Of a DNA stretch of 64,000 nucleotides, positions 1 through 53,437 are shown piece by piece; within the stretch, counting starts at the first letter, position 1; every line of letters starts with the position of its first letter. Source of the DNA: Amphiscolops sp. MND2022 (lineage: Eukaryota); assembly GCA_964187785.1 (NCBI GenBank), contig OZ076409.1:75952001-76016000 (forward strand). The letters run 5' to 3'. The position numbers were made by a program, and so were the translations under genes. The notes beneath the pieces are model-generated. The model ran no database searches. It saw only the letters and a program-made list of their open reading frames with translations, and was not told the DNA's origin.

Positions 1-10
1 CACCGTCCGT

Positions 11-79
11 GGGCATGCCGAGGCATGCCCTTCGACGACGTATGCCAAATGCCCAGTGCCACGCAGTCATTATCGCTAG
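11..79 (+). repeat. Terminal module (example copy): 20-nt perfect hairpin, tail and CTAG 3' end
   Basis: GGGCATGCC-GA-GGCATGCCC at 11-30 and CTAG at 76-79. A subterminal hairpin plus CTRR is the established Helitron 3' signature. Confidence 0.9.
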
Positions 80-1367
80 GTGCCGGGATTTCTATTCGAT
101 AAAGTATGTGGCGCGCCTTGGGTAGGGTCCCTTGCGCGCTCTTGGGTATGGTGTTCACCAGCTAGGAAATAGGGGTCGATTTTTCGGGATCTCCTAAACT
201 AGCCACACGATTTGGCTGAAATTTGGCACACGTACTCCCCTCGGCATGGTGAAGATGATTCCCTACTAGCGTTTTGCTCGAAAAATTTTTTTTGTTGTCC
301 AAAATAACGGTTTTTGGGGTAAAATTTTGAATTTTTTTTAAATTTTATCTTATATCTCGCCACGGGTTTACGCTAGCGCTTCAAGACCCTGCTAAAGAAA
401 GCTTGCAAACTGTCTCAGGAATGCGGTGTGAAATTTTCAGCTCAATCGGACTTAAACTCAGGGAGATATAGCGTTTTTCCGGAGCGGGGGGGTTTCATTT
501 TTCTAACGGTCCAGCTTATCTTTGCCATTTTTTCGAAAATGCACTCGCCTAAAGGCCTCCCCTGGCCGGTTTTATTCCCAGCAAAACCATTTGGCCCTAA
601 ATACGGAGTTTCAGCGTTCCAGCATTCCCGGGCGAAAAGTTGTGGGACTTAGAAAGTTTCAAAAATTTTCAAAAAAAAATTTTTCCGTTTTCCGCCCTCC
701 CCCCCTAGGGGAAAAGACCCCCCAACCAGTAATTTGAGTGAATTCATGTGGAAAGGCCATGTTTGGAGGAGAAAAATACCGTTTAGATCGTCTTTTTATC
801 TTGGCTCAACGTTGACTTATGACGTTTTGAAGGTGATGTTTGGAGAAGTAAAGCACGTGAAATGTAAACGTTATGAGTATTTATATGATCTTAAAGCCAT
901 TGAGATGCAATCTGTTTTGCTCAAAACGTAATTCATATCCGTTTGGTAGTCAATCAACACCCTTTGTTGTCATTTGACATCTTTTTTTGTTGATATAAGA
1001 AAAAATTTTGTGTATTTATTCATTTTTTTCTCATCAAATAACTTGAAACAGTTGAGTACATTCCATCCCCCCTTCACGGGGGAGATGAGAATGTACTCGC
1101 AAAAAGCCCCAAACTACGGCCCTTACCTTCCTGAGCTACGCAGTATAAAGATTGCATATTGGTTCCGACATTTTGATAGAGTTATATCTTGGTAATCTGT
1201 CTGGGTATGCAGAAAAACCAGCACGTGCTTTTTTATACCAAGTTGCTCACAACGACATTTATTTTATATCAACGCCCCCATATTTATCAACGCCCCCCGT
1301 CCGTGGGCATGCCGAGGCATGCCCTTCGACGACGTATACCAAAATATGTTCGAGCGCGTTAGCCTAG
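80..1367 (+). mobile_element. Non-autonomous unit 1, family A (head GTGCCGGGATT), 1288 bp
   Basis: Bounded by CTAG|GTG junctions. Similar to units at 18743, 21281 and 46172. Confidence 0.8.
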
Positions 1368-2634
1368 GTGGCCGTGTCTTTTCGACGTGCTTTTGCATCG
1401 AGGAGTGGGTAGGGCCCCGCGACGACCTAGAAGAATTGGATGCTCACCGAAACGTGCAGAATTCTACGAGATCTCATAGTTTGAGCCATACGATTTTGCT
1501 GAAATTTGGCATGTGGCCTGGAATTGGTGAGTAGGTAAAACGTGTAGGAGGTGATTTTTCCCAAATTCCACTGTGAGACGAGATATGGGCAAATAACGGT
1601 CCCAAAAATGGCAAAAATGCACTTTTTTCAACTTTGTCAGCCCATATCTCGTTCCCAGGTGCCCGGAGCGGGACGCGTTAAGCTGATTATAAACTCTAGG
1701 GTGTTGAGGCTGTACGGGGAAGTCAGGCCCGTTCCGATCGGACTTGTAGTCTTGGAGAAATAACGGTATTTTTGGGGAACCTTTTCTAACGGTCCAGCTT
1801 ATCTTTGCCATTTTTTCGAAAATGTACTCGCCTAAAGGCCTCCCCCTGGCCGAATTTACTCCCAGCAAAACCATTTGGCCCTAAATACGGAGTTTCAGCG
1901 TTCCAGCATTCCCGGGCGAAAAGTTGTGGGACTTGGAAAATTTTCAAAAATTTTCAAAATTTTTTTTTTCGTTTTCCGGGCCCCCAATGAAGGGGAAACG
2001 ACCCCCAACCAGTATTTTGAGTGAATTCATGTGGAAAGCCCTTGTTTTGACGAGAAAAATACCGTTTAGAACATCTTTTTATCTTGACTCAACGTTGACT
2101 TATGACGTTTTGAATGTGATGTAAGGATGTAGGAGGCATGTGATAAGTTGATGTTTTGAGTCTTTATCACATATGAAAGCGGTTGAGATGCAAGCTGTCC
2201 TGCTCAAAACGTCTTTCGTTGTAATTTTCCAGTGCACCAATACCCTTTGGTGTCATATAAACATACTTTTCGTCGATATATTAACAATTTTAATGTATTT
2301 ATTCCCATTTTTATTATCTTATAACTCAAAACAGTTGAGTACATTTCATCTCCCTTTCGGGGGAGATGAGAATGTACTCGCTAAAGACCTAGCGCCATGA
2401 CCAAAAGTTTGAAACCCACGTTTTTTATCTTCTTACAGACTTGTTTTTGTATTTTTTCGGAATTTTTTAAAAATTAATATACTTGAAATACATTACTTGA
2501 CTTTACTACTACAACCCACCTCCAACGACAACGCCCCCCTGCTTGCATCAACGCCCACCGTCCGTGGGCATGCCGAGGCATGCCCTTCGACGACGTATGC
2601 CAAATGCCCAGTGCCACGCAGTCATTTTCGCTAG
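1368..2634 (+). mobile_element. Non-autonomous unit 2, family B (head GTGGCCGTGTCTTTTCG), 1267 bp
   Basis: Near-identical to units at 39815 and 44903. Confidence 0.8.
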
Positions 2635-4029
2635 GTGGTCGGGTATTTTTTTTTACTCGTATATGACGTTTGCGAGGCTTTGGGGAGGGCCCCGTGCCGA
2701 GCCTGTACCGAAATTGGCCACATGTAGAAATCTGGCACTAAAATGCGAGATCTCAAAAAGTAGCCGTTAGAAATTTCTGAAAATTTGCATGTGGCTCTGA
2801 ATCAATGAGTAATGAAAAAGTGTAGAAGTGACTACCTCTGAAAAAATGGTCCTTGTTGCACTTTTTGCGCAATTTCTGTCGCATTGTTGCGTTTTTTATG
2901 TCATTTTCGACTTTGGAGGCAAAAAACTCATAGATGCTTTATTCCTAGCGTACCAAGTGTGGAGCAGGAAAAGTTGCAGCATCTTCAATAACGTATGCTG
3001 AGAAAATTTGGTTGCCCTCTGGTTACCCCCCACAGAGATAGAGGGGTGCTTCCGGTTACTTTTGACCCGCTAAATTTGGGAAACTGCTAATTTTCGTAAA
3101 GAAGCCGTAGATTTAGCGTGTCCACACCCTGCTGAAGTATTGTTAGGCATTTTAAGATAGATCCGATGACATGCGTTCAGTTCACCCCCCATCACCCCCT
3201 GGACCGGAAATGAATTTTTTTGTGTACTTTAAGACCGGAAGTCTCCATTTTCACCGGTAAGGAGTCCTTGTACGAGCAACTAGCAAGACATCAAAATTGA
3301 AGGAAAACCTGGGGTCAACTTAGTGACCACGTCTTGTCCAGTCATGGGTTCCGCTAAGACCGGAAATGGGGTCAAAACCCCCCTTTTGGTCGTTTTTTTA
3401 TCAGTTTGACCAGAGTTTTTTCCATGTTCAAGTCGCAATGCACATCAAACCAGTGTGAACATAAACTACATATTTATTAAGTAGACGTACCTGACACTGC
3501 CATATACCGGAAGTAACCCCCCTGACCGGAAGTTGTCAATTTTGACCAGAAATGGTCCAAAAAGTAGCGATAAATCAGTTTCTCACTGGTTTTTAGGTCA
3601 AGTTATTACTTTTTTTTCTTTCTTATTGTTTTTTTCCTACTGAAAAACATACTTTGTAGCTTGTTTGGCTAAAGTTCTGGAAAGGGATCACCTTTATCAC
3701 CCCCGATAGCCTTCCAAGTTGACCTTGGGTCAATCTTGAAGGCTATCAGTTCAGAAAACGAAAAATTGTGGAAATTGGGTTTCTCCTTTTTGTTGTAATT
3801 TTTTCCATAAAGTCAATATGTTAAATGAGGCTTTTGTTCACCTGAGTGATCTGAAACTTGTCCAGAGGTGTCACACACACTAATACCATTTCAAGTTGAA
3901 GTAAACATATGAGGGTAGTATTAGACAACATCACACACAATTACCAACGCCCACCGTCCGTGGGCATGCCGAGGCATGCCCTTCGACGACGTATGCCAAA
4001 TAGCGCCACAGGGCGCCCCTATTTGCTAG
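2635..4029 (+). mobile_element. Non-autonomous unit 3, family C (ACCGGAAGT-rich), 1395 bp
   Basis: Bounded by junctions. Related to 4030-5418 and to the first ~1 kb of 47462-49631. Confidence 0.75.
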
Positions 4030-5418
4030 GTGGTTGGGGCGGTCCCCAGAACGCACAAGGAGGCGCGGGGAGGGTCCTGCGCCGACGTAGAATAATTTCA
4101 TATAATACTAGTATCCTACATGGGTGTTTTAGAGGCGATTTTGGAATCTAACCGTAGGATTTGGATAATTTTTTGCATGCGGCCATAACTCGAAATTCTA
4201 AGAACTTTTTCCTACTGTCATTTTCCCCGCAAATTGTTTTTTGTTGACTTATGGCCGAAAAACCGGAAATAACGTCCTTTTTAGACGTTATATCCGAAGT
4301 GTCGTCATAACTTTTTTCCAGGGCATGCTAGCGTTCTCGTTCGCTTTTACACTTAGTTGCAGCATCTCAAAATACAACTGGTGGAAAATTTTGGTTGCAT
4401 TCGGATCACCCCCCACCGAGATAGAAGGGTTCCCCCCTCCAGTTTTACCCCCCAAATTTGCAAAATAGCCAATTTTGAGCATGAAGCCGAGGATTTAGCG
4501 TACCCGCACCCTCCTGATGTTTTGTTGTACGTATTGGGGTCAATCTGACGACTTGTGTGGTTTTCACCCCCAACCCCCCCTTGGAACGGAAATGACACTT
4601 TTTTGTGTTTTTTGGCAGAATTTAGCCTTTTTCATTATTAGGCAGTCGTTTTAGGGACTCCTAGCAGGATATCGAAATTGAAATACAACCTGATCACAAC
4701 CCAGTGACAATATGTTGGCCACTTGGAGGTATCATCATGACCGGAAGTGGGGTCAACCCCCCTTTTTGTGACCGCTTTTTGACCTTGTGCACCAAAATGC
4801 CAACATCTTGAGGCCTAATGAGGCATTCAAATCTGTACAAAGATAAAATGTTAGACAACCGAAGTCCCGGAAGATCTTTAGCATATACCGGAAGTTACCC
4901 CCCATGACCGGAAGTTACCAAATGTGACCGGAAATGGTCCAAAAATTAATGAAAAGTTGAATTTTTCACTATTTCAAGACCACTTAATTGAAACTTTTCA
5001 ATCTCAAAACTAGCGTACTGGCTTGTTTTGCTGAATTTATGGAAATTGATGAGCTCTATCGCCCCCGATAGCCTTCGAAGTTGACCTTGCGTCAACTTTG
5101 GAGGCTATCGATAAAGAAAAATGAACAACAAAGTACATTGTTTCTCTCGTTTTTTTCCCGTTGTTTTTCCTCAAACTTTCTTGTGACATATACATGGCCG
5201 TTAGTTGAAATCAATATTAAGCCCATGTTATAGCTGGAGCAGCGAAGCGTTACACAGACTAGTGTGGTTCTGAAATCACACTTTTTAAATTAACAACTGA
5301 CCGTCTTAGTCAACTCCACACATTCATACCAACGCCCACCGTCTGTGGGCATGCCGAGGCATGCCCTTCGACGACGTATGACGAATCCATTCCAACGACA
5401 CCCGCAGTCCTCAGCTAG
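4030..5418 (+). mobile_element. Non-autonomous unit 4, family C, 1389 bp
   Basis: Bounded by junctions. Shares the internal hairpin GATAGCCTTC...GGCTATC and ACCGGAA repeats with unit 3. Confidence 0.75.
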
Positions 5419-6692
5419 GTGGCCGCGTCTTTTAGATGGACTTTTAACCCTGAGGCGCGGGTAGGGTCCTGCGCCGAAACAGAGAAATTATACTACTGCA
5501 CATAGTCCCGTTCCAGCAACGATCTCGAAAACTGACCGTTAGAAATTCCTGAAAATTTGCATGTGGCCCCCAATTGGCAAGCAATGAAAAAGTGTAGGAA
5601 GTCATTTTTCCCAAATTCCATTGTGAGAGGAGATATATGAAAAAAACGGACCCCAAAATGACGGAAATTTCACTTTTTGACAAAAAATGTGACATTATCT
5701 CCTCAGGCAAGGTTCGGAGCGAAATTTGTCAGAACCCAAACCTCCAGCAGACTGTTAGAGCAGTGCACACAGTAAATTTCAAGGAAATCGGATTATCACA
5801 TGTGGAGAAATTGACGTTTTTCCGGCGAAATTTCTGGCAAGTGCAGTCTATCTCTGCCATTTTTTGCCCAAAATTTTTCCGAGACCCTCTCCTAAAGGCC
5901 TCCCCTGGCCCAATTTCCTCCCAAAAAAACCATTTGGCCCTAAATACGAGGTTTCAGCGTTCCAGCATACCCGTGCGAAATTTTATGGGACTTAAAAAAT
6001 TTTCAAAAATTTTCAAATTTTTTCTGAAAAAGTTCAGGCCGCCCAAAGTGAAGAAACTTCCACACAACTAGTATTGCAAGTGAATGCATGTGGAAAGCCC
6101 TGCACTTGACGAGAAAAATGCCGTTTAGAACGTCTTTTTATCTTAACTTGACGTTGACTTATGATCTTTTGAGTATGGTATAACACGTGATCACAGTAGT
6201 AACAGTCCTAAGTTTCAATTTTTTTTTCAAACAAAAACGCATGAAAAGAACCTGGAAAAGGTACTGATAGGTCAGTTGGGATATCTGAAGCCTGTGTACA
6301 TTCCCGTAGTGTATAGCGGAGGTATTTGAGACTTATTAGAAATTGTGATATATTTTATACAAGTCTTTTTTTCTCTTAGAATCTTATGCCGTTGAGTACA
6401 TTCCATCTCCCTCTCAGGGGAGATGTGAATGTACGTTTGCCAAATGCCTTGTAAAGTTCACATCTTTGATGGATTAAACTAAGTAAACAAGTGTGAGTTG
6501 CGTTTGCCGAATCACTACAGCAAAAAATATTATAACTTTAGTGAGATTGAATGCTTTTTGTCTTTAGTGTTTTTTCTTGCATAGCCGACTTCCACATCCA
6601 AATATCAACGCCCACCGTCCGTGGGCATGCCGAGGCATGCCCTTCGACGACGTATGCCAAATACCATATGCCACGCAGTCTTTTCCCGCTAG
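5419..6692 (+). mobile_element. Non-autonomous unit 5, family D (head GTGGCCGCGTCTTTT), 1274 bp
   Basis: Bounded by junctions. 3' half is highly similar to unit 23827-25098. Confidence 0.8.
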
Positions 6693-7832
6693 GTGCCGGG
6701 ATTTCTATTCGTTCAAGGATGTTGCGCGTGTGGGTAGGGCCCCTGGCGCGCTCTTTTATTTCGGGTACACCTACTCCAAATTCACGATGTGATTTCGACG
6801 ATCTCGTAAACTAGCCACACGATTTGGCTGAAATTTGGCACACAGCTCCGTTGGAACATTGTAAGAACAAATCCCTACTGACGTTTTGCCCGCTAAACAT
6901 TTTTTGTTGGTCAAAAATGCGATTTTCCGACAAAATTTTTGACTTTTTTTTCTTTTTCAACTCATATCTCGCCACAGGGTTACGCTAGCGCTTTGCAACC
7001 TATGATCCTTTTTTGTAGGGCATTGCATGTAGAACACGTATGCCAAATTTGGTGGCGATCGGACTTAAACTCAGGGAGATATAACGATTTTTTAGGTGCA
7101 TTTTTTGACATTTTTTGCTTTTGCTGATTTATCTTTGCCGTTTTTTGCCCAGATTTTTTTTGAGACACTCTCCTAAAGACCTCCCCTGGCCGGTTTACCT
7201 CCCAGCAAAACCATTTGGCCCTAAATACGAAGTTTCAGCGTTCTAGCATTCCCGGGCGAAAAGTTGTGGGACTTAGAATAATTTTTTGGAAACGCAAAAT
7301 GTGTAAAGTCAACTTCAGGCCTCCCAAAGTCAGGGAACTTCCACACAACTAGGATTGCAAGTGGATGCATGTGGAAAGTACTGGGATAGACGAGAAAAAT
7401 GAGCTATAGAACGACTCTGTAGCTTAACTTGACGTTGACTTATGACAATTTTAGTGTGAGCTTGCTAAGGGGTCCGAAAGTCAAAAATTGAAAATTGAGT
7501 TATTCCAAAGCAAATACTCCTTTATATAGGCTAATTAGGTATCAGTAACGTGAAACACGGTTGTACGGAGCGATTATTATCATAGGCGATACGGTTCGTT
7601 CAAAAAAATGTCCAAAAATTTTTTCTCTTTTTTCGTAGGTTTTTTGTCTAGGATTTTTTTCTTTGGTTTTTTCCTTAGGTTATAGGTGTAGGTTATAGAT
7701 TAGGCTTTTTCTAAGGTCCTGTTTTGCTTTCCCTGTTCACTGCATAGTTTGTTTTTAGTGGCAGAAGAAGACGACGACGACCAAGCATACGAGTTTTTCT
7801 TTTTTTTTCCTTGGGTTTTCTTCGGGTTAATG

Positions 7833-7930
7833 GCTATCCCGAAACCAGGTGCTCCTGCTCGAGGGCTTCTCGGGCGCTGGTTTCGTGTATGGGGCTTTCC
7901 CCCCCAGTAGGTAACCTCTGCCCAAATTTT
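7833..7930. other. Hairpin module, diverged copy (stem CGAAACCAG/CTGGTTTCG followed by CCCCCCCAGTAGGTAACCTCTGCCCAAATTTT)
   Basis: Perfect 9-bp inverted repeat at 7840-7848/7877-7885 with an inner stem. The 3' box is shared with the modules at 8557, 26228 and 26965. Confidence 0.5.
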
Positions 7931-8556
7931 CAAACGTCCCTCGTAATTCGCATTTTGCCGGTGTCTTTTTTTTACGGGCGTTTCGTCGAAAAAGATAGAA
8001 TTTTTCTCGGAACCGGCAAAATCGGAAAATCAATCACAAAATAAACGACGTCGAGAAATCAATCAGACTTAACGGCGTCCAGTTGCTACAAAGAAGAAGT
8101 ACAGATTAACCATGCTTCAGTTTCAGGTGCCAATCAATCAAGCTCAAGATGTCTTTTTTTGTAACTTATTAAATAGTCCATAAAATTATGGAAATTAGGA
8201 AAATTTTCAAAGGTTGGTTTTTTTTTGAAATTTAATGCAACTTATTAACATATGTGCCAAAGCTTTTGAAAGCATTAGGAGAAATCAATATAAAGTAAAC
8301 CAATATGCAGTTTAACTGTTCTAACTTCCTTCAGTTTTAGTTCACAGATGAAGATTCGCCGTAGCGATACGTAACGTTTTTTATCTAAATCGAATTTGCG
8401 GAGACTCAATCTGCCTATCGTTCGCACGGTCGTTATTGAGCATAAATTACGCTCATTGAAAAAGTGCGTGATCAGCGTCGTTCAATTTTTACGTGTAATT
8501 ATCATAGGTGCCCATATGTTAAATTGTAAGAATAGAGGTAATAGGTTTTCAAAATC

Positions 8557-8660
8557 CGGCTCATCAGAAGTTAGCTTGCGGCGTTATGCTGAAGGCCCTT
8601 CTGATGATGCTATGTCCCCCCTTTTTTAGTGGGTAACCTATGCCCAAATTTTTTTCCAGC
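8557..8660. ncRNA. Candidate structured RNA/ssDNA module, copy 1
   Basis: Stem TCATCAGAAG/CTTCTGATGA plus a small hairpin TGGGTA-ACCTA-TGCCCA. Conserved with compensatory changes at 26228 and 26965. Confidence 0.5.
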
Positions 8661-9274
8661 AATTTTTCCCAGCATTTTTGTTTTTTGTGAGTCTTAACCA
8701 AAATAATTTCTGATACATATTTTTGATTAAATATTACTTCTTAAAGTAGCTTTTCATTGAATGGTTTTAATACAATCAGAATTGTTTTTCCTTGTAAAGT
8801 TTTTTTGTAATATGAGTTTGTAACTGATGTACATGAGAATGAATTCCACCAATAAAAGACTCGAAACCTCTTGTACTGTATGTTTGATGTATGTTTATTT
8901 TATACTGAGAGTCAAGTAGGACATTACGTCTCTCGATCAAATCATAGATTTTCTTCGCTCTTTTATTTCGTTAATTGCTATTTTCCAAGTGGAACCGCTT
9001 CACACATTTGATTTTGCAAAGAAACATTGAACAAAGGTATTGTTTTAGCATATTTAGAATCAAAATTGAATTTTTCACGTTTGAAAGATTATAAGATTTA
9101 CAAGTTCTCTGATTTTATCCATCGTCTAAAACTTGATTGACTCGATTTTGGTAATTGTTCCAGTGGCGCTTCAACTATTAATTCGATTTCATTAGCCAAT
9201 TCGGTTGATCCGTATCAAATTTTAGTCCCAATGAGATACTGAAATGTTCAATTTCGTTTCATATTTTCAGGGAT

Positions 9275-18209: not shown

Positions 18210-18742
18210 AAATCGCATTATCAACTACGAAAAATGCAGAAATCAAGAGAAGTGACAATGAGCAAAAAACATTGATAGATTTAAAAATCTCGAAACATTT
18301 TGATTCAATAATGTTATAATGTGATCATAAAAAGATTGCAGAAAAAATAATCTTGAAACCGGTAAAAGATTATAAATATCGTATTGTTATGTTCCTTTAG
18401 TTCATATTCTTGAAATAATGTTAATTTGTTATTTTCAAGAAATAAAAATTCACTTTTTCGTTCCCACAAGAAACTTGAATAGAGTGTTCATAGAAAAAAT
18501 ACGTATGTTCATAGACTAGTCAATATTTTCAATACAAATATCTGAACTAGTCAAAATACTAATCTTTTCTTTGCTTTCACTCTGGTATGACATTTGCTAA
18601 ACGTTTGGTCCTTACAACATACACATGACTAACGTCAACGCCACATACTGTTACCAACGCCCACCGTCCGTAGGCATGCCGAGGCATGCCTTTCGACGAC
18701 GTATGCCAAATACCATAAAACCGACGCGCACTCTCCCGCTAG

Positions 18743-42363: not shown

Positions 42364-43633
42364 GTGGCCGTGTCTTTTCGACGTGCTTTTGCATTGAGGA
42401 GTGGGTAGGGCCCCGCGACGACCTAGAAGAATTGGATGCTCACCGAAACGTGCAGAATTCTACGAGATCTCATAGTTTGAGCCATACGATTTTTCTGAAA
42501 TTTGGCATGTGGCCTGGAATTGGTGAGTAGGTAAAACGTGTAGAAGGTAATTTTTCCCAAATTCCACTGTGAGAGGAGATATGGGCAAATAACGGTCCCA
42601 AAAATGGCAAAAATGCACTTTTTTCAACTTTGTCAGCCCATATCTCGTTCCCAGGTGCTCGGAGCGGGACGCGTTAAGCTGATTATAAACTCTAGGGTGT
42701 TGAGGCTGTACGGGGAAGTCAGGCCCGTTCCGATCGGACTTGTAGTCTTGGAGAAATAACGGTATTTTTGGGGAACCTTTTCTAACGGTCCAGCTTATCT
42801 TTGCCATTTTTTCGAAAATGTACTCGCCTAAAGGCCTCCCCCTGGCCGAATTTACTCCCAGCAAAACCATTTGGCCCTAAATACGGAGTTTTAGCGTTCC
42901 AGCATTGCCGGGCGAAAAGTTGTGGGACTTGGAAAATTTTCAAAAATTTTCAAAAAATTTTTTTTCGTTTTCCGGGCCCCCAATGAAGGGGAAACGACCC
43001 CCCAACCCTTATTTTGAGTGAATGCATGTGGAAAGGTCATGGTTAGAGGAGAAAAATACCGTTTAGATTGTCTTTCTATTTTAACTTGACATTGACTTAT
43101 GACGTTTTGAATGTGATGTTAGGATGTGTGAGGCATGTGAAAAGTTGATGTTTTGAGTCTTTATCTCATATGAAAGCAATTGAGATGCACGCTGTCCTGC
43201 TCAAAACGTCTTTCGTTGTAGTTTTCCAGTGCACCAGAACCCTTTGGTGTCATTTGAACATACTTTTCTTCGGTTTATTAACATTTATAATGTGTTTATT
43301 CCAATTTTTATTATCTTATAGCTCAAAACAGTTGAGTACATTTCATCTCCCTTTCGGGGGAGATGAGAATGTACTCGCTAAAGACCTAGCGCCATGACCA
43401 AACTTTGAAGCGCACGTTTTGTATCTTCTTACAGACTTGTTTTTGTATTTTTTCGGATTTTTCAAAAAAATAATAATATACTTGAAATACATTACTTGAC
43501 TTTACTACTACATTCCACCTCCAACGTCAACGCCCCCCTGCTTGCATCAACGCCCACCGTCCGTGGGCATGCCGAGGCATGCCCTTCGACGACGTATGCC
43601 AAATGCCCAGTGCCACGCAGTCATTATCGCTAG
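42364..43633 (+). mobile_element. Non-autonomous unit 15, family B variant, 1270 bp
   Basis: Near-identical to unit 49632-50903. Confidence 0.8.
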
Positions 43634-44902
43634 GTGGCCGGGAACTTTTTTTCCTGCATTTTTCTGTCCAATTGGGGGAGGGGCCCCAAGTGGCTGTTAT
43701 CCGGTTTTACTACCTACCCTAAACACGCTCAAAAAATGACGATCTCGAAAACCACCCCTTAGATTTTCCTGAAATTTTGCATACAGGCCTAGAATCAAAT
43801 CCTAAGAACTATTTCCTACTGGCGTTTTTCCGAATTTTTTCAAAAAGTTGGTCAAAAATGCAACAAAAGTTGCCAATGGACATAAAAAACGCAACTTTTG
43901 GACTTTGAAGGCTAATATCTTTTTCCAGAGTGCCCGGAGCGGTTCGCACGTGGACCACAATATTGCTGAGCATTGTCGGGGGAGTGCGTGGAAAAATTTT
44001 GGTTTGAATCGGATGAAAATTGATTGAGAAATAAACGCAAATTTTCGTGCATTTGTTGCAAATACCAGTCTATCTCTGCCATTTTCGCCCAAAATTTTTC
44101 CCAGAGCCTTTACAGGAGGCAACCCCTGCCCAAATTTCTGCCGAGCAAACCCATTTGACCCTAAATACGAGGTTTCAGCGTTCTAGCATTTCCGGGCAAA
44201 AAGTTGTGGGACTTTGAAAAATTTCAAAAAATTGCAAAAATTGTAAAAAGTAAATTCTGGCGTCCCAAAGTCAAGAAACTTTCACACAACTAGTATTGCA
44301 AGTGAATGCATGTGGAAAGTACTTGGATAGACGAGAAAAATGAGCTATAGAACGACTCTCTAGATTAACCTGACGTTGACTTATGACAATTTGAGTGTGA
44401 GCATCCTATAGGATTTCAATGTCAAAAATGAGATTTTGTAAGTCATGTCTAATCAAAAACTCATCGGAACACGTTCAATCAGCCCCATAGCTGTTCAATC
44501 ACTGTGGCTTAGTATAGCAACGCCATTTACTATCTTTAGGCCCATTTTGAAAATTTTCGTTACCGTCTTATTCGTCCGATATCACGAAACAGTTGAGTAC
44601 ATTCCATCTCCCCCTTGGAGGGAGATGAGAATGTACTCGCCAAAGACCTGATACAATGGCCCATATTGGATTATCTTTGACCTTTCTCACGATATTGCAC
44701 ACGGATAGCTGTGTTTGGTAAAAGTTTTCCTTTGCACCATGTCTCCAGAAGCTGAACCACTTCTTTAGCTTACTACTACTCAAACATCACTAACGTCAAC
44801 GCCACATACTCGCATCAACGCCCACCGTCCGTGGGCATGCCGAGGCATGCCCTTCGACGACGTATGCCAAATAGCGCCACAGGGCGCAAACTTGTCCGCT
44901 AG
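43634..44902 (+). mobile_element. Non-autonomous unit 16, family E, 1269 bp
   Basis: Bounded by junctions. 3' half is related to units 21 and 22; tail is shared with unit 10. Confidence 0.78.
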
Positions 44903-46171
44903 GTGGCCGTGTCTTTTCGACGTGCTTTTGCATTGAGGAGTGGGTAGGGCCCCGCGACGACCTAGAAGAATTGGATGCTCACCGAAACGTGCAGAATTCT
45001 ACGAGATCTCATAGTTTGAGCCATACGATTTTGCTGAAATTTGGCATGTGGCCTGGAATTGGTGAGTAGGTAAAACGTGTAGGAGGTGATTTTTCCCAAA
45101 TTCCACTGTGAGACGAGATATGGGCAAATAACGGTCCCAAAAATGGCAAAAATGCACTTTTTTCAACTTTGTCAGCCCATATCTCGTTCCCAGGTGCCCG
45201 GAGCGGGACGCGTTAAGCTGATTATAAACTCTAGGGTGTTGAGGCTGTACGGGGAAGTCAGGCCCGTTCCGATCGGACTTGTAGTCTTGGAGAAATAACG
45301 GTATTTTTGGGGAACCTTTTCTAACGGTCCAGCTTATCTTTGCCATTTTTTCGAAAATGTACTCGCCTAAAGGCCTCCCCCTGGCCGAATTTACTCCCAG
45401 CAAAACCATTTGGCCCTAAATACGGAGTTTCAGCGTTCCAGCATTCCCGGGTGAAAAGTTGTGGGACTTGGAAAATTTTCAAAAATTTTCAAAAATTTTT
45501 TTTTTCGTTTTCCGGGTCCCCAATGAAGGGGAAACGACCCCCCAACCAGTATTTTGAGCGAATTCATGTGGAAAGCCCTTGTTTTGACGAGAAAAATACC
45601 GTTTAGAACATCTTTTTATCTTGACTCAACGTTGACTTATGACGTTTTGAATGTGATGTAAGGATGTAGGAGGCATGTGATAAGTTGATGTTTTGAGTCT
45701 TTATCTCATATGAAAGCGGTTGAGATGCAAGCTGTCCTGCTCAAAACGTCTTTCGTTGTAATTTTCCAGTGCACCAATACCCTTTGGTGTCATATAAACA
45801 TACTTTTTGTCGATATATTAACAATTTTAATGTATTTATTCCAATTTTTATTATCTTATAACTCAAAACAGTTGAGTACATTTCATCTCCCTTTTGGGGG
45901 AGATGAGAATGTACTCGCTAAAGACCTAGCGCCATGACCAAAAGTTTGAAACCCACGTTTTTTATCTTCTTACAGACTTGTTTTTGTATTTTTTCGGAAT
46001 TTTATAAAAATTAATATACTTGAAATACATTACTTGACTTTACTACTACAACCCACCTCCAACGACAACGCCCCCCTGCTTGCATCAACGCCCACCGTCC
46101 GTGGGCATGCCGAGGCATGCCCTTCGACGACGTATGCCAAATGCCCAGTGCCACGCAGTCATTATCGCTAG
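44903..46171 (+). mobile_element. Non-autonomous unit 17, family B, 1269 bp
   Basis: Near-identical to unit 2. Confidence 0.8.
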
Positions 46172-47461
46172 GTGCCGGGATTTCTATTCGTTCGAGTATG
46201 TGGCGCGTGTGGGTAGGGCCCCTGGCGCGCTCTTGTGTTTGGGGGTTTCCTACTTCTAAATCACGTTCAGATTTCCGGGATCTCGTAAACTATCCATACG
46301 ATTTGGCTGAAATTTGGCACACGTACCCCCCTCGGCACGGTGAAGATGATTTCCTACTGACGTTTTTCCCGCTAAACATTTTTTGTTGACCAAAATAACG
46401 GTTTTTGGTGGAAAATTTTTGATTTTTTTTAAATTTTATCTTATATCTCGCCACGGGTCCACGCTAGCGCTTCCAAACCCTGCTGACGAAACCTCGCAAA
46501 CTGTCTCAGGAATGCTGTGTGAAATTTTCAGGTCAATCGGACTTAAACTCGGGGAGATATAGCGTTTTTCCGGAGCGGGGGGGTTTCATTTTTCTAACGG
46601 TCCAGCTTATCTTTGCCATTTTTTCGAAAATGCACTCGCCTAAAGGCCTCCCCTGGCCGGTTTTACTCCCAAAAAAACCATTTGGCCCTAAATACGGAGT
46701 TTCAGCGTTCTAGCATTCCGGGGCGAAAAGTTGTGGTACTTAGTAAATTTCAAAAATTTTCAAAAATTTTTTTTTCGTTATTTGGGCCCCCAAAGTGGGG
46801 GAAAAGACCCCCCAACCAGTAATTTGAGTGAATTCATGTGGAAAGGCCATGTTTAGCGGCGAAAAATGCTTTTTAGATCGTCTTTTTATTTTAACCTGTT
46901 GTTGACTTATGTTGTTTTGAAGGTGATGTTTGGATGTGTGAAGCATGTGAAAAGGTAATTTTTTGTGTCTTTATCTCTTCTAAAAGCCATTGAGATGCAA
47001 TCTGTTTTGCTCAAAACGTAATTCAATGCAATTTGGCAGTCAATGAACACAATTTGGTGTCTTTTGTTATATTTTTCTGTTGATATAATAAAAAATTTTG
47101 TGTCTTTATTAATTTTTTTTAAATAAAATAACTTGAAACAGTTGAGTACATTCCATCCCCCCCTTCCGGGGGAGATGGAAATGTACTCGCTAAAAGCCGC
47201 GAACAAGAGCCCATACCTTCCTGCGCTACGCAGTATAAAGATTGCATGTTGGTTCCGACTTTTTGGTAGTGTTATATCTTGGTAATTTGACTGAATATGG
47301 AGAAAAATCAGCAAGTGCTCTTTTATAGCAAATTGCTGACAACGACAATTTTTTTATATCAACGCCCCCATATTTATCAACGCCCCCCGTCCGTGGGCAT
47401 GCCGAGGTATGCCCTTCGACGACGTATACCAAGATATACTCCCGAGCGCGGTAGCCGCTAG
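46172..47461 (+). mobile_element. Non-autonomous unit 18, family A, 1290 bp
   Basis: Similar to unit 1. Terminal hairpin carries a G-T variant (GGTATGCCC). Confidence 0.8.
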
Positions 47462-49631
47462 GTGGAGGTTATTATATATCAATTAAAGTGTTTTTTTCCG
47501 GAGTTTGTGGCTTTGGAAAAAACAAAAGGCGAGAAATTGGGCACTCCAGGCTGAACCTAAAAACACCCTAAAATTCGCCCGATTTTTTTACGATCTCGAA
47601 ACCCAACCGTACGATTTGGCTGAAAATTTGCATGTGGCTCCTAATCAATGAGTAATGAAAAAGTGTAGGAGTGACTTTTCCTGGGAAAATTGTTTTTGTT
47701 GCACTTTTTGCGCAATTTTTGACCGATTGTTGCGTTTTTTATGTCACTTTTGACTTTTCAGGCAAAAAACTCATAGATGCTTTGATCCTAGCGCATCGAG
47801 TGTTTCGACCAAAAAGTTGCAACATGGTCTTTTACGTACGTTGAGAAAATTTGGTAGCCATCGTATTACCCCCCACTGAGATAGAGGGAACTTCCGGTGG
47901 ATTTTCGCACTCTAAAAACGAGGACCTCCTAAATTTCAGCATGAAGCCGTAGTTTTAGCGTGCTCATACCCTGCTGAAGTTTTGTTGGGCATATTGAGAT
48001 AGTTATGATATCATGTGTTCAGTTCACCCCCCATCACCCCCTGGACCGGAAATGAACTTTTTTTGCACTATCATACCGGAAGTCTCCAATTTCACCGTTA
48101 AGCAGTTCTTGTACGAGCAACTACCAGGACATCAAAATTGAAGTACCACCTGAGGTCAACGTAGTGACTACGTGTTGTCCAGTCATAGGTTCCGCTATGA
48201 CCGGAAATGGGGTCCAAACCCCCTTTTTTGGTTGTTTTTCAACAATTTTACGAGTGTTTGGTCCACATTCAAGTCGCGTAAGTCAATTGAATCAGTGTGA
48301 GCATAAACTGTATGTTCACTGCGTAGACGTAACTGACACTGACAGATACCGGAAGTAACCCCCCGTGACCGGAAGTTGTCATTTTTGACCGGAAATGGTC
48401 CAAAATGTAGCGTAAAATCAGTTTTCCACTGCTTTTTAAAGTCAACTTATTATTTTTTCAATCTCCGCGAGCTTGTATTCAGGTTCGTTTTTGTTACCCG
48501 TGCACTTTGCAACAAATATACATCTGTAAAATTTTCTCTATAATATCTTCGGATAGAGAAATAACGTGTTTTTGAGACTTTTTTCAAAAATATTAGACTA
48601 TATCTGTCATTTACCCAAAGTTTTTCAACATAACGACCACAGTGGTTCGTCTCTGCCCAAATTTGTGCCTAAAAAACTATTTGGCCCATTGGCCTCAGTT
48701 TGAGCGTTCCAGCTTTGCGTGATCATAAGCTAAGGGACTTGAAAAAATTTCGAACTTTTTTCAAAAAAAAATTCTCACATTCATGTCTCCCAAAGTGAAG
48801 AAACTTCCACACAACTAGGATTGCAAGTGGATGCATGTGGCAAGCCCTATAATTGAAGGGAAAAATGCCGCTTAGAACGTCTCTTTATCGTAACTTGACG
48901 TTAACGTATGGTGCTTTGAATGAGAGCTTGATAAGAGGTCGAGAAGTCAAAGTGTGTAAATGGAACGTATGTCTCGTCGAAAACTCACCGGAATTCATGC
49001 AATGAACCCCAATTGTCCTCAATTGCAGTTGCCTACTGCAACAACGTCTTTCTGGTACATTTTACTCTTTTTCATAAGTGTCAAAATTATTTTTAAATTC
49101 AGTTAGCAAGAAACACTTGAGTACATTTTCATCTCTCCCCAGCGGGTGAGATGAGAATGTTCTTGCTAAATGCCAGGTACTACGGCCCCCCTTTTGTTTT
49201 AATGCGACGCATTCTCTGCTTTAGCACATAGATATTTCATTTCGCCTGGTTTTTTGTATACTCTCTGACTTGTTATTATAAAGTTCTCGTCATTACTGTA
49301 CATAAATTTACAACCATAAATCGTTATCGGCAACGCCACATACACTTAGACACCCACCATTCTGTAGGTATGTCGAGGCATACCTTTCGATTATGTCATA
49401 ACGCAAACGCGATAAAAAGTGCTGAAATTCAGAAACAGTGACAATCAATTTTCACTATTTGACATATGGTAGGTTTTTATAGGGAACTTACACATCACTG
49501 ACATTTCACAACATTCCAGCTGACGCCCACATACCATATCAACGCCCACCGTCCGTGGGCATGCCGAGGCATGCCCTTCGACGACGTATGCCAATTTTTT
49601 TATATCTACACTCAATTGCGGTAGCAGCTAG
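47462..49631 (+). mobile_element. Composite non-autonomous unit 19, 2170 bp
   Basis: Family C 5' part, diverged standard 3' part, relic terminal hairpin at 49366-49385 without CTAG, then an intact terminus at 49557-49631. Confidence 0.72.
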
Positions 49632-50903
49632 GTGGCCGTGTCTTTTCGACGTGCTTTTGCATTGAGGAGTGGGTAGGGCCCCGCGACGACCTAGAAGAAT
49701 TGGATGCTCACCGAAACGTGCAGAATTCTACGAGATCTCATAGTTTGAGCCATACGATTTTTCTGAAATTTGGCATGTGGCCTGGAATTGGTGAGTAGGT
49801 AAAACGTGTAGGAGGTGATTTTTCCCAAATTCCACTGTGAGACGAGATATGGGCAAATAACGGTCCCAAAAATGGCAAAAATGCACTTTTTTCAACTTTG
49901 TCAGCCAATATCTCATTTCCAGGTGCCCGGAGCGGGACGCGTTAAGCTGATTATAAACTCTAGGGTGTTGAGGCTGTACGGGGAAGTCAGGCCCGTTCCG
50001 ATCGGACTTGTAGTCTTGGAGAAATAACGGTATTTTTGGGGAACCTTTTCTAACGGTCCAGCTTATCTTTGCCATTTTTTCGAAAATGTACTCGCCTAAA
50101 GGCCTCCCCCTGGCCGAATTTACTCCCAGCAAAACCATTTGGCCCTAAATACGGAGTTTCAGCGTTCCAGCATTCCCGGGCGAAAAGTTGTGGGACTTGG
50201 AAAATTTTCAAAAATTTTCAAAAAATTTTTTTTTTCGTTTTCCGGGCCCCCAATGAAGGGGAAACGACCCCCCAACCCTTATTTTGAGTGAATGCATGTG
50301 GAAAGGTCATGGTTAGAGGAGAAAAATACCGTTTAGATTGTCTTTCTATTTTAACTTGACATTGACTTATGACGTTTTGAATGTGATGTTAGGATGTGTG
50401 AGGCATGTGAAAAGTTGATGTTTTGAGTCTTTATCTCATATGAAAGCAATTGAGATGCACGCTGTCCTGCTCAAAACGTCTTTCGTTGTAGTTTTCCAGT
50501 GCACCAGAACCCTTTGGTGTCATTTGAACATACTTTTCTTCGGTTTATTAACATTTATAATGTGTTTATTCCAATTTTTATTATCTTATAGCTCAAAACA
50601 GTTGAGTACATTTCATCTCCCTTTCGGGGGAGATGAGAATGTACTCGCTAAAGACCTAGCGCCATGACCAAACTTTGAAGCGCACGTTTTGTATCTTCTT
50701 ACAGACTTGTTTTTGTATTTTTTCGGATTTTTCTAAAAAATAATAATATACTTGAAATACATTACTTGACTTTACTACTACATTCCACCTCCAACGTCAA
50801 CGCCCCCCTGCTTGCATCAACGCCCACCGTCCGTGGGCATGCCGAGGCATGCCCTTCGACGACGTATGCCAAATGCCCAGTGCCACGCAGTCATTATCGC
50901 TAG
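49632..50903 (+). mobile_element. Non-autonomous unit 20, family B variant, 1272 bp
   Basis: Near-identical to unit 15. Confidence 0.8.
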
Positions 50904-52170
50904 GTGGCCGGGAATTTTTTTTCTGCTCAATTCTTTGCCAACTGGGGGAGGGGCCCCTGGTGGCTGTTACCCAAATTACATACCTACCCAAATCGTCCGC
51001 TCCGGATACGATCTCAAAACTGAGCCACACAATTTTCCTGAAACTTTGCATGTGAGCCTAAAATGAGATTGTAAGAACAATGATATAGGCGTTATTCCTG
51101 AATTTTTTCAAAAAGTTGGTCAAAAACGCAAAAAATGGGTCAAAATTGACCTCTTTTTCAACTTTTTTATTTTTGAGAGCCCATATCTCGGAACGAGGTG
51201 GCCGTAGCGGGCCGCATAAGGACTCCGTTTTTGCTGGGCACTTGATGAGGAGTGCGTGGACAAATTTTCGTCCAAATCGAAGGAAAATTGACTGAGTAAT
51301 GAGTGATTTTTTGACGACCTTTTTTGCGAACCCCATTGTATCTCTGCCATTTTCCGCCAAAATTTTCAAAAATGCTTCTACAGGAGGCAACCCCTACCCA
51401 ATTTTCTGCAAAACAAAACCATTTGGCCCTAAATACGAGGTTTCAGCGTTCTAGCATTCCCCGGTGAAAAGTTATAGGACTTAGAAATTTGTCATTGAAA
51501 CGCAAAATTTGTAAAGTCAACTTCCGGTGCCCAAAAGTCACAAAACTTTCACACAACTAGTATTGCAAGTGAATGCATGTGGAAAGTACTGAAATAGACG
51601 AGAAAAATGAGCTATAGAACGACTCTCTACCTTAACCTGACGTTGACTTATGATGTTTTGAATGTGAGCATCCTATCTGATTTTAATGTCAAAAATGAGA
51701 TTTTGTAAGTCATGTCTCATCAAAAACTCAACGGAATACGTTCAATCATCCCCATAGCTGTTCAATTGCCGTGGCTTAGCGCAGCAACGCCATTTAATGT
51801 CTTTGGACCCAATTTGAAAATTATCGATACCGTCTTATTCGTCCGATATCACGAAACAGTTGAGTACATTCCATCTCCCTCTTTGGGGGGAGATGAGAAT
51901 GTACTCGCTAAAGAGCTGGTACAATGGCCCATATTTGTTTTTAACTGACGCTTCTCATGATATTTCACACGTACACCTCTATTTGGTAACACATTTTCCT
52001 TTGCACCATGTTTATATATGCTAAACCACTTCTTTACCTTACTACTTCTACTCTAACATCACCAACGTCAACGCCACATACTCGCATCAACGCCCACCGT
52101 CCGTAGGCATGCCGAGGCATGCCTTTCGACGACGTATACCTAGTATACGCGTTAGCGCGGTAGCCGCTAG
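50904..52170 (+). mobile_element. Non-autonomous unit 21, family E, 1267 bp
   Basis: Close tandem relative of unit 22. Confidence 0.8.
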
Positions 52171-53437
52171 GTGGCTGGGAATTTTTTTTCTGCTCAATTC
52201 TTTGCCAACTGGGGGAGGGGCCCCTGGTGGCTGTTACCCAAAATACATACCTACTAAAATCGTCCGCTCCGGAGACGATCTCGAAAACCAATCCATAACT
52301 TTTTCTGAAACTTTGCATGTGGGCCTAAAATGAGATTGTAAGAACAATGATATAGGCGTCATTTCTGAATTTTTGCAAAAAGTTGGTCAAAAACGCAAAA
52401 AATGGGTCAAAATTGACCACTTTTTCAACTTTTTTATTTTTGAGAGCCCATATCTCGGAACGAGGTGGCCGTAGCGGCCCGCATAAGGACTCCGTTTTTG
52501 CTGGGCACTTGATGAGGAGTGCGTGGACAAATTTTTGTCCCAATCGAAGTAAAATTGACTGAGTAATGAGTGATTTTTTGACGACCTTTTTTGCGAACCC
52601 CATTGTATCTCTGCCATTTTCCGCCAAAATTTTCAAAAGTGCTTCTACAGGAGGCAATCCCTGCCCAATTTTCTGCAAAACAAAACCATTTGGCCCTAAA
52701 TACGAGGTTTCAGCGTTCTAGCATTCCCCGGTGAAAAGTTATGGGACTTAGAAATTTGTCAGTGAAACGCAAAATTTGTAAAGTCAACTTCCGGTGCCCA
52801 AAAGTCACAAAACTTTCACACAACTAGTATTGCAAGTGAATGCATGTGGAAAGTACTGAAATAGACGAGAAAAATGAGCTATAGAACGACTCTCTACCTT
52901 AACCTGACGTTGACTTATGATGTTTTGAATGTGAGCATCCTATGTGATTTTAATGTCAAAAATGAGATTTTGTAAGTCATGTCTCATCAAAAACTCATCG
53001 GAATACGTTCAATCATCTCTATAGCTGTTCAATTGCCGTAGCTTAGTACAGCAACGCCATTGAATGTCTTTGGACCCATTTTGAAAATTATCGATACCGT
53101 CTTATTCGTCCGATATCACGAAACAGTTGAGTACATTCCATCTCCCTCTTTGGGGGGAGATGAGAATGTACTCGCTAAAGAGCTGGTACAATGGCCCATA
53201 TTTGTTTTTAACTGACGCTTCTCATGATATTTCACACGTACACCTCTATTTGGTAACACATTTTCCTTTGCACCATGTTTATATATGCTAAACCACTTCT
53301 TTACCTTACTACTTCTACTCAAACATCACCAACGTCAACGCCACATACTCGCATCAACGCCCACCGTCCGTAGGCATGCCGAGGCATGCCTTTCGACGAC
53401 GTATACCTAGTATACGCGTTAGCGCGGTAGCCGCTAG
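52171..53437 (+). mobile_element. Non-autonomous unit 22, family E, 1267 bp; last unit of the array
   Basis: Ends CCGCTAG followed by unrelated TTAAGAG. Confidence 0.8.

What the first reader, a model, noticed from the sequence alone, without database searches (positions are those of the whole stretch)
1..53437. Self-targeting Helitron-like cassette array: 22 different units stacked precisely at CTAG|GTG, integron-like
Seen: >53 kb with no spacer DNA, all units in one orientation, at least five short families plus two divergent Rep-helicase units. Tails and heads are shuffled exactly at the junction. The tail ATGCCCAGTGCCACGCAGTCATTATCGCTAG precedes different heads (80, 41083, 43634, 46172, 50904). 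The head GTGGCCGTGTCTTTTCG follows different tails (1368, 25099, 39815, 41083, 42364, 44903, 49632). Established: rolling-circle overrun gives tandem copies of the same element, and HUH enzymes such as TrwC relaxase and AAV Rep can integrate DNA at copies of their own nick site. Inference: excised circles re-integrate at resident end-junctions, giving a growing, reorderable array served in trans by the embedded enzymes. I do not recognise this architecture as described, but cannot search the literature.
Basis: partly seen in the sequence, partly recalled or inferred. Interest (0 to 1): 0.92.

Follow-up and report, generated by a model that had tools for sequence, protein, structure and literature searches.

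The report
Self-stacking Helitron-like transposon arrays
A divergent lineage of rolling-circle transposons appears to insert at the seam between its own resident copies, building gap-free, same-direction, mixed-family arrays of megabase size instead of scattering through the genome.

Summary
Confirmed, and larger than reported. The window is the 3' end of a gapless array: 117 units over 200,740 contiguous bases, inside a roughly 6-Mb block. Genome-wide, 4,555 of 4,668 counted element 3' ends (97.6%) abut another unit's GTG start. Free ends show an IS91-like target, CTNG^(G/A/T)T (15 of 20 flanks), with no target duplication. This matches the elements' own junction, CTAG^GT. Unit order is close to random. 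Only 3 of 157 neighbours are at least 99% alike, and near-identical copies on other chromosomes mostly have different neighbours. None of 835 internal target-like sites is used in the contiguous stretch, against 116 junction sites. Concatemers, segmental duplication and purging of dispersed copies therefore fit poorly; unit-by-unit insertion at resident junctions fits best. The Rep-PIF1-(GIY-YIG) transposases form a branch outside HLE1 and HLE2 (support 100/99), with relatives in Perkinsus and hagfish. Several lineages, those compared about 30-35% identical, share the same arrays. No cargo was found in the short units and the enzyme is not a tyrosine recombinase, so 'integron-like' is only an analogy. 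Circles, expression and targeting are inferred, not shown. Ten literature searches found no such arrays described.

The parts
1..53437 (+). Gapless head-to-tail array: the tail of an upstream unit (1-79) plus 22 complete units; continues at least 147 kb upstream
76..82 (+). Example junction CTAG|GTG, the inferred nick, circle-closure and integration site (22 such junctions in the window)
   Evidence: 155 CTAG|GTG and 2 CTGG|GTG among 157 junctions in four regions
80..6692 (+). Short non-coding units U01-U05 (1,267-1,395 bp, four head types)
5454..5475 (+). Example 5' subterminal hairpin (conserved loop, family-specific co-varying stem)
   Evidence: own arms -6.05 vs permuted -3.84 +/- 0.36 kcal/mol over 21 head types; 0 of 10,000 permutations as low
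6693..18742 (+). Autonomous-type unit U06, 12,050 bp; a 99.8% identical copy lies 77 kb upstream with different neighbours
9209..16258 (+). Uninterrupted 2,349-codon Rep-helicase frame: HUH at 12593-12601, YxxxY at 13106-13120, PIF1 at about 14459-14860, degenerate GIY-YIG-like end at about 15902-16084
16780..17796 (+). Second ORF, conserved in other autonomous lineages; OB-fold ssDNA-binding-like (lead only)
   Evidence: 31% over 187 aa to the U12 counterpart, E 9e-24; Atlas neighbours POT1/CTC1/MEIOB at 0.90-0.92 with low recognition; no Pfam hit; model unusable
18743..25098 (+). Short units U07-U11 (1,264-1,274 bp)
25099..39814 (+). Autonomous-type unit U12, 14,716 bp; its first ~740 bp are up to 97% like the commonest short family
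27687..28856 (+). Upstream ORF/exon with a 2A-like motif and an OTU-like segment (28158-28475)
   Evidence: matches residues 61-167 of P0023, whose OTU scores E 4.8e-6; motif
28969..35810 (+). U12 Rep-helicase in two frames, separated by a frame-keeping 83-nt GT-AG intron candidate (33977-34059) inside Walker A
37644..38537 (+). U12 second ORF, homologous to 16780-17796
39815..53437 (+). Short units U13-U22 (1,267-1,290 bp, plus one of 2,170 bp at 47462)
53373..53390 (+). Example 3' subterminal hairpin within the ~45-bp tail block shared by all 22 units
   Evidence: alignment; folds
53434..53439 (+). Free 3' end of this array segment, CTAG|TT, which keeps the 3' half of the genomic target

Best explanation
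These are autonomous and non-autonomous rolling-circle (HUH Y2 + PIF1) transposons of a branch outside HLE1 and HLE2. Each unit runs GTG...CTAG (some families CTGG). SHOWN: they sit 3' of a genomic CTNG and 5' of (G/A/T)T with no duplication, so each insertion leaves a target-like site at both of its ends, and a tail|head seam is a perfect CTAG^GT site between the two subterminal hairpins. INFERRED from Helraiser and IS91: the Rep nicks CTAG^GTG, the helicase peels one strand, and the 3' hairpin plus CTAG ends and closes a unit-length single-strand circle. INFERRED here: Rep binds and nicks resident seams because they are its own origin and terminus, so circles go in mostly at seams, one unit at a time and always in the same direction. 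Growth is then proportional to array size, which gives one giant block and many small arrays. Each Rep lineage probably favours seams with its cognate ends, producing short family runs. Recombination inside units probably adds some mosaicism.
For: 4,555 tails abut GTG against 113 free ends; 192 more seams are CTGG|GTG. 15 of 20 non-element 5' flanks are CTNG against a 1.2% background, and only 5 of 20 are CTAG, so there is no TSD. 21 of 25 A/T/C-starting 3' flanks have T at +2; G-starting free ends are GT in 46 and G-other in 6. In 200,740 contiguous bases, 116 junction sites are used and no nested insertion was seen at 326 (+) and 509 (-) internal CTNG^DT sites. The tail tracks its own head (MI 1.45) far more than the next head (0.63; null about 0.41-0.44); there are 58 tail|head types in 157 seams. 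3 of 157 neighbours are at least 99% alike; 75 of 88 cross-region near-identical pairs share neither neighbour; the longest shared run is 4 units. CTAG^DT is rarer inside units on the + strand, 14 vs 38 over 24 family representatives, p 0.001. HUH and Y2 motifs align with Helraiser, and the model's only significant fold match is 7LCC, E 7.8e-8.
Against: All evidence is static and from one assembly; no circle, transcript, polymorphism or enzyme assay. Order is not fully random: 134 distinct pairs vs 145 +/- 2.6 shuffled, and same-family neighbours 0.457 vs 0.265 expected. That could reflect local duplication followed by divergence, or waves of activity. 4 identical unit pairs exist among 161 units. 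One nested insertion at an internal CTTG was seen (L103), and 2 of 20 flanks do not fit the target. An older family was found only as dispersed solos, so seam targeting is not universal in the lineage. Genome counts cover one tail type with exact matches and miss decayed solos. The fold match is partial (TM 0.35, rmsd 13 A).
Confidence: 0.7

Rival explanations
1. Rolling-circle overrun and tandem or segmental duplication seeded the arrays; unequal crossover and gene conversion between homologous units then shuffled them. No seam targeting is needed.
For: Tandem Helitrons from rolling-circle concatemers are reported (passages of PMC5148889 and PMC11934779). Units are homologous along their length, and some look mosaic. 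Family runs exist. The shared tail block is almost invariant genome-wide (3 and 16 variants at two sites), which homogenisation could cause.
Against: Adjacent same-family units are no more alike than non-adjacent ones (0.881 vs 0.872; 0.904 vs 0.921). Three adjacent 3.07-kb units differ by 4-6%. Crossover within homologous units cannot create new tail|head pairings, yet 58 types occur in 157 seams. Crossover in the shared tail block would tie the variable tail to the next head, the opposite of what is seen. No higher-order repeat longer than 4 units.
Confidence: 0.13
2. Insertion is random among CTNG^DT sites or biased to a permissive chromatin region, and selection removes dispersed copies, leaving arrays as safe harbours.
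For: About 4.8 million such sites are extrapolated from 28 kb of non-array DNA. Old solos exist. Most sampled variants lie in one block (11 of 16).
Against: Inside the array, 835 internal target-like sites on both strands are unused against 116 seams, and all 117 units share one direction. Regional bias or selection against dispersed copies predicts nested and inverted insertions.
Confidence: 0.07
3. Seam specificity comes from base pairing between the incoming strand's ends and the resident ends (guide-like, as recalled for IS200/IS605), or from in-place strand transfer without a free circle, rather than from Rep re-binding its origin.
For: Short tail-head pairings appear in several folded circle junctions. 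Family-level preference. The head hairpin stems co-vary.
Against: The pairings differ between families and were not tested against a control. Near-identical units occur on different chromosomes (18 of 44 C2/C7 units have a match of at least 98% in the C1 stretch), which favours a diffusible intermediate.
Confidence: 0.08
4. Assembly artefact: reads from dispersed copies were concatenated.
For: No reads were examined (one search listed no run).
Against: 80 distinct types at 97% among 161 units with base-exact seams. Arrays occur on several chromosome-scale contigs with clean flanks. In ENA assemblies, four different Rep clusters (34-69% identical to U06) list the same longest-contig length, 1,297,008, which suggests co-location there too.
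Confidence: 0.02

Closest known systems
HLE1 / canonical Helitron (Helraiser, PDB 7LCC)
   Same: HUH Y2 Rep fused to PIF1; 3' hairpin and CTAG end; no TSD; a possible ssDNA-binding gene downstream of RepHel; Helraiser makes circles with exact CTAG|5' joints (PMC4778049 passages).
   Different: 5' end is GTG, not TC; target is CTNG^DT, not A^T; a 5' hairpin is present; C-terminal GIY-YIG; about 2,350-2,600 aa. U06 finds no Helraiser match at E 0.01 by phmmer, whereas this genome's own HLE1 scores E 9e-193. Separate branch. 97.6% of counted ends abut another unit.
HLE2 / Helitron2 / Helentron
   Same: Hairpins at both ends; OTU upstream of RepHel in one lineage.
   Different: No DUF6570 and no APE domain in 2 window proteins and 19 relatives, while 6 of this genome's 7 HLE2 loci scanned show DUF6570. 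Not T^T insertion. Separate branch.
IS91 family (bacterial rolling-circle IS)
   Same: Tetranucleotide target next to the origin end (IS91: CTTG, GTTC, CTCG; T at position 2), a similar tetranucleotide at the terminator (CTCG), no TSD, single-strand circle inserts (PMC13181058 passages). Here the target is CTTG/CTCG/CTAG/CTGG with T at position 2 in 19 of 20.
   Different: Eukaryotic, with a fused helicase and an intron candidate. No IS91-type relative was sought or found. Mixed megabase arrays are not mentioned in the passages read.
Paramecium Helitrons (third HLE clade)
   Same: Outside HLE1/HLE2; sequence-targeted, orientation-fixed and clustered (PMC13085455 and its preprint).
   Different: They insert in telomere repeats and are flanked by them; 'GIY' has 0 occurrences in either text. 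Whether the two clades are related could not be tested, as no sequences were held.
Tandem, centromeric or subtelomeric Helitron arrays (plants, Hydractinia, Xenopus, Meloidogyne)
   Same: Helitron-derived tandem arrays, up to megabases in Hydractinia.
   Different: Described as concatemers, truncated copies, decayed single-subfamily repeats, or elements interspersed with satellites, not full-length units of dozens of families joined base-exactly.
Integrons / superintegrons (recalled, not from a call)
   Same: Same-orientation array of mobile units with hairpin ends, moved singly by an enzyme encoded in the locus.
   Different: HUH transposase rather than a tyrosine recombinase; many enzyme copies inside the array; no conserved cargo; no significant polarity; probably copy-in rather than excise-and-reinsert.

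Membership tests
Helitron-like elements (superfamily) | HUH Y2 Rep fused to a PIF1 helicase | tested here: met
   Pfam Helitron_like_N E 5e-8 and PIF1 E 1.3e-8; motifs align with Helraiser; fold hit 7LCC
Helitron-like elements (superfamily) | No target-site duplication | tested here: met
   The 5' flank tetramer differs from the terminal CTAG in 15 of 20 flanks
Helitron-like elements (superfamily) | 3' subterminal hairpin | tested here: met
   Shared 8-bp stem in 22 of 22 window tails, formed in 14 of 14 folds shown
Helitron-like elements (superfamily) | Circular intermediate and rolling-circle transposition | not testable with these tools
   No run listed
HLE1 | CTRR 3' end | tested here: met
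   155 CTAG and 2 CTGG among 157 seams
HLE1 | 5' TC start | tested here: not met
   117 of 117 units start GTG
HLE1 | Insertion at A^T | tested here: not met
   The base before the head is G in 17 of 20 flanks
HLE1 | Transposase in the HLE1 clade | tested here: not met
   Branch of 22 rows apart from HLE1 and HLE2, support 100/99; only 2 HLE1 rows, both from this genome; long-branch warning printed
HLE2 (Helitron2/Helentron) | DUF6570 marker / APE domain | tested here: not met
   Absent; present in HLE2 controls
HLE2 (Helitron2/Helentron) | Insertion at T^T | tested here: not met
HLE2 (Helitron2/Helentron) | 5' hairpin plus asymmetric terminal inverted repeats of 8-15 bp | tested here: inconclusive
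   5' hairpin met, but it lies about 35-55 nt inside the end; only short, family-variable head-tail pairings were seen, without a control
Paramecium HLE clade | Transposase in that clade; insertion in telomere repeats | tested here: inconclusive
   No telomere repeats are visible in the flanks printed; clade membership not testable without their sequences
IS91 family | Tetranucleotide target beside the origin, echoed at the terminator | tested here: met
IS91 family | Helicase-less IS91-type Y2 transposase | tested here: not met
   Fused PIF1; no IS91 transposase family among the Pfam hits
Integron | Tyrosine-recombinase integrase and attI site | tested here: not met
   No such domain in 11 window ORFs scanned
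Integron | Cassettes carry cargo genes | tested here: not met
   112 of 157 short units have no ORF of 100 aa or more; the recurrent 136-aa antisense frame is confined to one family; no Rfam or tRNA hit
Integron | Polar addition at one end | tested here: inconclusive
   Best-hit identity vs position: rho 0.18, p 0.06, over 200 kb of a ~6-Mb block

The most novel reading that the evidence does not exclude
An undescribed, taxonomically wide clade of GIY-YIG-tailed Helitron-like transposases uses IS91-type tetranucleotide targeting and, in this genome, treats its own origin-terminus seam as a preferred integration site. Several deeply diverged enzymes and dozens of non-coding families jointly build self-renewing, megabase cassette arrays one unit at a time: a eukaryotic, HUH-driven counterpart of a superintegron and a natural, unlimited-capacity, scar-free site-specific integration system.
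Probability: 0.55. Interest if true: 0.88.

Novelty: new variant of a known kind. Interest (0 to 1): 0.8.

Why it matters
Helitron target choice and the origin of Helitron tandem arrays are open questions; the papers read explain arrays by rolling-circle concatemers. These arrays are full-length, mixed and base-exact, which points to self-targeted integration as a separate route to megabase repetitive compartments and a way for a transposon to multiply without disrupting host genes. Uninterrupted, recently copied transposase frames and a sharply defined seam make the mechanism directly testable in vitro. A HUH enzyme that integrates cargo repeatedly at a short site while regenerating that site would be of interest for genome engineering. 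The transposase clade (306 clusters at E<1e-30) seems to be missing from the HLE1/HLE2 scheme.

Tried and rejected
Sequencing runs: none was listed for 9209-17800, so expression and circles are unexamined; this is no evidence either way. CTAG as a 4-bp TSD: rejected. Moving the boundary to CTAGG|TG: rejected, because free ends continue A, T or G after CTAG. Cargo, tRNA or Rfam content: none found. Short-period satellite: TRF found only small incidental repeats. One block per chromosome (centromere-like): not favoured, since 11 of 16 sampled tail variants lie in C1 70.5-74.8 Mb, though the sample is small and subfamily-biased. A preferential-attachment toy model gives a dominant array (61-92% of units); it is compatible with the data but is not evidence. 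Relatives' DNA context: the metagenome scan gave 6 weak helicase-only matches (E 2e-5 to 2e-4, not followed), and the viral scan gave none among 44 candidates, so arrays in other organisms are untested. Structure of the second ORF: pLDDT 32, discarded. 7 of 39 proteins were left out of the tree (including the hagfish one) because my motif pattern missed their HUH. Flanks L042, L045 (two), L069 and L103 were dropped from the target tally as element sequence, and L100, L102, L105, L107 and L110 as other tails, rearranged or truncated. Two of the 20 kept flanks came from a pattern that required CTNG; without them the count is 13 of 18. Earlier findings of this scan: nothing returned. The plant centromeric-Helitron paper (Xiong et al. 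2016, recalled) is not held.
Full report
OBSERVATION. The window is C1:75,952,001-76,016,000 of a 1.067-Gb eukaryotic assembly; the host was not identified. It holds 22 complete units between CTAG|GTG junctions, from 80 to 53,437, all on +. Nineteen units are 1.26-1.40 kb, one is 2.17 kb, and two (U06, 12,050 bp; U12, 14,716 bp) encode large proteins. All 22 share a ~45-bp tail block with an 8-bp-stem hairpin, then a family-specific 30-45 nt and CTAG. A hairpin 35-55 nt inside the head has a conserved loop and family-specific arms that pair better with their own partner than with others: -6.05 vs -3.84 +/- 0.36 kcal/mol over 21 types, with 0 of 10,000 permutations as low.

EXTENT. With 150 kb fetched upstream, the array is 117 units in 200,740 contiguous bases with no spacer, all starting GTG. 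Of 20 samples between 74.95 and 75.88 Mb, 15 carry a tail and 17 a head match, all on +. Further matches place the block at about 70.5-76.5 Mb. Beyond the window's LINE, 2 of 5 samples show an array on the opposite strand, so the block is made of segments. Genome-wide, exact tail matches are followed by CTAG|GTG in 4,555 cases and by a free end in 61 + 46 + 6 = 113, i.e. 97.6% abutting; 5 of 30 'free' ends inspected were in fact damaged internal seams. Another 192 seams end CTGG. Other arrays were seen on C1, C2, C3, C4, C5, C6 and C7. These counts cover one tail type and miss decayed copies.

TARGET. At 20 free 5' ends whose flanks do not match element sequence, the preceding four bases are CTNG in 15 (5 CTAG, 4 CTTG, 4 CTCG, 2 CTGG), one base off in 3, and unrelated in 2; the background is 1.2%. 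Two of the 20 came from a pattern that required CTNG; without them the count is 13 of 18. Free 3' ends continue with AT (14), TT (7) or other (4) in 25 loci, and with GT 46 times vs G-other 6 times genome-wide. The target is thus CTNG^DT. CTAG is not a duplication, since single elements such as L090 (CTTG|...CTAG|AT) have different tetramers at their two ends. This is the logic described for IS91: a tetranucleotide target (CTTG, GTTC, CTCG) beside the origin, CTCG at the terminator, and no TSD (PMC13181058, passages). Every insertion therefore recreates target-like sites at both its ends.

MORE THAN THE HEXAMER. About 4.8 million CTNG^DT sites are extrapolated for the genome from 28 kb of non-array DNA, against about 4,700 seams. 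Within the contiguous stretch there are 326 (+) and 509 (-) internal sites against 116 seam sites, and I saw no nested or inverted insertion. One nested insertion and one inverted fragment were seen elsewhere (L103, L102). CTAG^DT is rarer inside units on + than on - (14 vs 38 in 24 family representatives, p 0.001), as expected if it is a functional nick site.

ORDER. Among 161 units from four regions there are 80 types at 97% identity and 134 distinct neighbour pairs in 157 (shuffled 145 +/- 2.6). The longest shared run is 4 units, and 248 of 327 pairs at least 98.5% alike share neither neighbour. Only 3 of 157 adjacent pairs are at least 99% alike. Same-family neighbours are in excess (0.457 vs 0.265, gone by lag 4), but they are no more similar than non-adjacent members (0.881 vs 0.872; 0.904 vs 0.921). 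18 of 44 units on C2 and C7 have a match of at least 98% in the C1 stretch, and 75 of 88 such cross-region pairs share neither neighbour. U06 has a 99.8% copy 77 kb upstream in another context. The variable tail follows its own head (MI 1.45) much more than the next head (0.63; null 0.41), with 58 tail|head types in 157 seams. Units therefore move singly and switch partners at the seam. The residual clustering counts against pure randomness; I read it as family-level preference, but local duplication followed by divergence is not excluded. No clear age gradient was found (rho 0.18, p 0.06); median best-hit identity is 98%.

ENZYMES. U06 has an uninterrupted 2,349-codon frame with Helitron_like_N (E 5e-8) and PIF1 (E 1e-8), HUH and YxxxY. 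A 58-sequence profile aligns these motifs with Helraiser. The Rep model (pLDDT 82) has 7LCC as its only match at E<0.001, partial at TM 0.35. U12 is 33% identical in this region, has an OTU-like upstream segment and a frame-keeping 83-nt intron candidate. Four more frames of 2,377-2,603 codons sit in arrays on C2, C4, C5 and C6 behind the same tail block, and many frames of about 2,375 codons are listed. Short families share about 740-830 bp of head and the tail with particular autonomous units, and the 3.07-kb family shares its head and CTGG tail with the C4 lineage. A C-terminal GIY-YIG scores in 13 of 19 relatives and in two genomic lineages (E 1e-6, 2e-5), but weakly in U06 (E 0.026). By my reading of recalled catalytic residues, it is degenerate in U06 and U12. 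Its role is unknown and it is not needed for the model.

PLACEMENT. The genome also holds HLE1 (E 9e-193 to Helraiser) and HLE2 (DUF6570). In a Rep-core tree of 32 rows, the arrayed proteins and 16 relatives form one branch apart from both (100/99, stem 2.1). The program warns of long branches, the references come only from this genome, and 7 rows were left out. The profile finds 1,181 clusters at E<0.001 and 306 at E<1e-30. Named members among 30 looked up are from Perkinsus olseni and Myxine glutinosa. HELIANO mentions a few unclassified clusters and one GIY-YIG-carrying HLE2 in Sphagnum (PMC11417382, passages). Paramecium has a third, telomere-targeted clade (preprint passages and section 18 part 1; PMC13085455 passages). 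Overlap with either could not be tested; their supplements were not read and may bear on it.

MECHANISM. Shown: ends, hairpins, target, absence of TSD, exact seams, single-unit mobility as inferred from context, and intact-looking enzymes. From known biology: Helraiser nicks the 5' end, stops at the hairpin and CTAG, makes exactly joined circles and inserts them by two tyrosines (PMC4778049, passages). Inferred: here the circle joint and the resident seam are the same sequence, so Rep engaged on a seam yields the free CTAG-3'OH and the enzyme-linked GTG that accept a circle. Confidence 0.7. Rivals are duplication plus crossover (0.13), pairing-guided or circle-free transfer (0.08), selection on random insertion (0.07) and artefact (0.02).

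NOVELTY. Tandem Helitrons are known, described as concatemers, truncated copies or decayed repeats (passages of PMC5148889, PMC12001565, PMC11934779 and PMC13404089). Helitron2 ends are described in PMC3627910, Replitron ends in PMC10288648 and head-to-tail Terminon retroelement arrays in PMC6431247, all seen as passages; a centromere atlas preprint added nothing. Ten searches (listings and abstract starts) showed no mixed, base-exact, self-targeted Helitron arrays and no GTG...CTAG lineage with a CTNG target. Subscription journals and Repbase were not covered, and the plant concatemer paper was not held. It works like an IS91-targeted Helitron with an integron-like layout; it is a Helitron-like element, but not HLE1, HLE2, IS91 or an integron. 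Verdict: new variant of a known kind, interest 0.8.

Noticed in passing
window 27687-27790: 2A-like (StopGo-type, label recalled) motif ending NPGP near the start of U12's first ORF; similar motifs in relatives P0099 and P0100, 2 of 261 stored proteins. A search pairing it with Helitrons found nothing relevant.
   Followed up: partly
window 55162-58511 (+): LINE-type element after the array end: ORF1-like frame, then APE endonuclease plus reverse transcriptase; the RT frame stops at 58511.
   Followed up: no
L213, L214 (C1 76.04-76.07 Mb): An array on the opposite strand faces the window's array; a similar facing pair at C1 23.98 Mb (L042) and a strand switch near C2 102.7 Mb.
   Followed up: partly
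L217:3334-4518; L045; L042; L069: Units with other tail types that did not match the shared tail-block pattern (ending CCACTGG, CCATCGCTAG, CCAGCGCTAG) are stacked in the same arrays.
   Followed up: partly
L038, L041, L043, L067, L084, L087, L097: An older ~1.4-kb family, copies about 66-81% alike, found only as dispersed solos with the same ends and target; seam targeting may be a later trait, or old arrays were lost.
   Followed up: partly
short units, about 150-200 nt before the tail block: A conserved internal inverted repeat, and tightly kept unit sizes (~1.27, 1.39, 2.0, 3.07 kb) across diverged families; unexplained.
   Followed up: no
genome-wide tail block: Very few variants at two CpG-type positions (3 and 16 among about 4,600 copies): copies are young or homogenised.
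   Followed up: no
L086:~2062 on the minus strand: A solo unit sits in a flank that looks tRNA-derived (by eye).
   Followed up: no
L187-L196: Canonical HLE1 and several HLE2/Helentron lineages coexist in this genome; one HLE2 carries a JAB-like domain.
   Followed up: partly
seam sequence, e.g. window 43626-43638: Many seams resemble the CTCF-binding motif (recalled consensus, not tested); may be coincidence.
   Followed up: no
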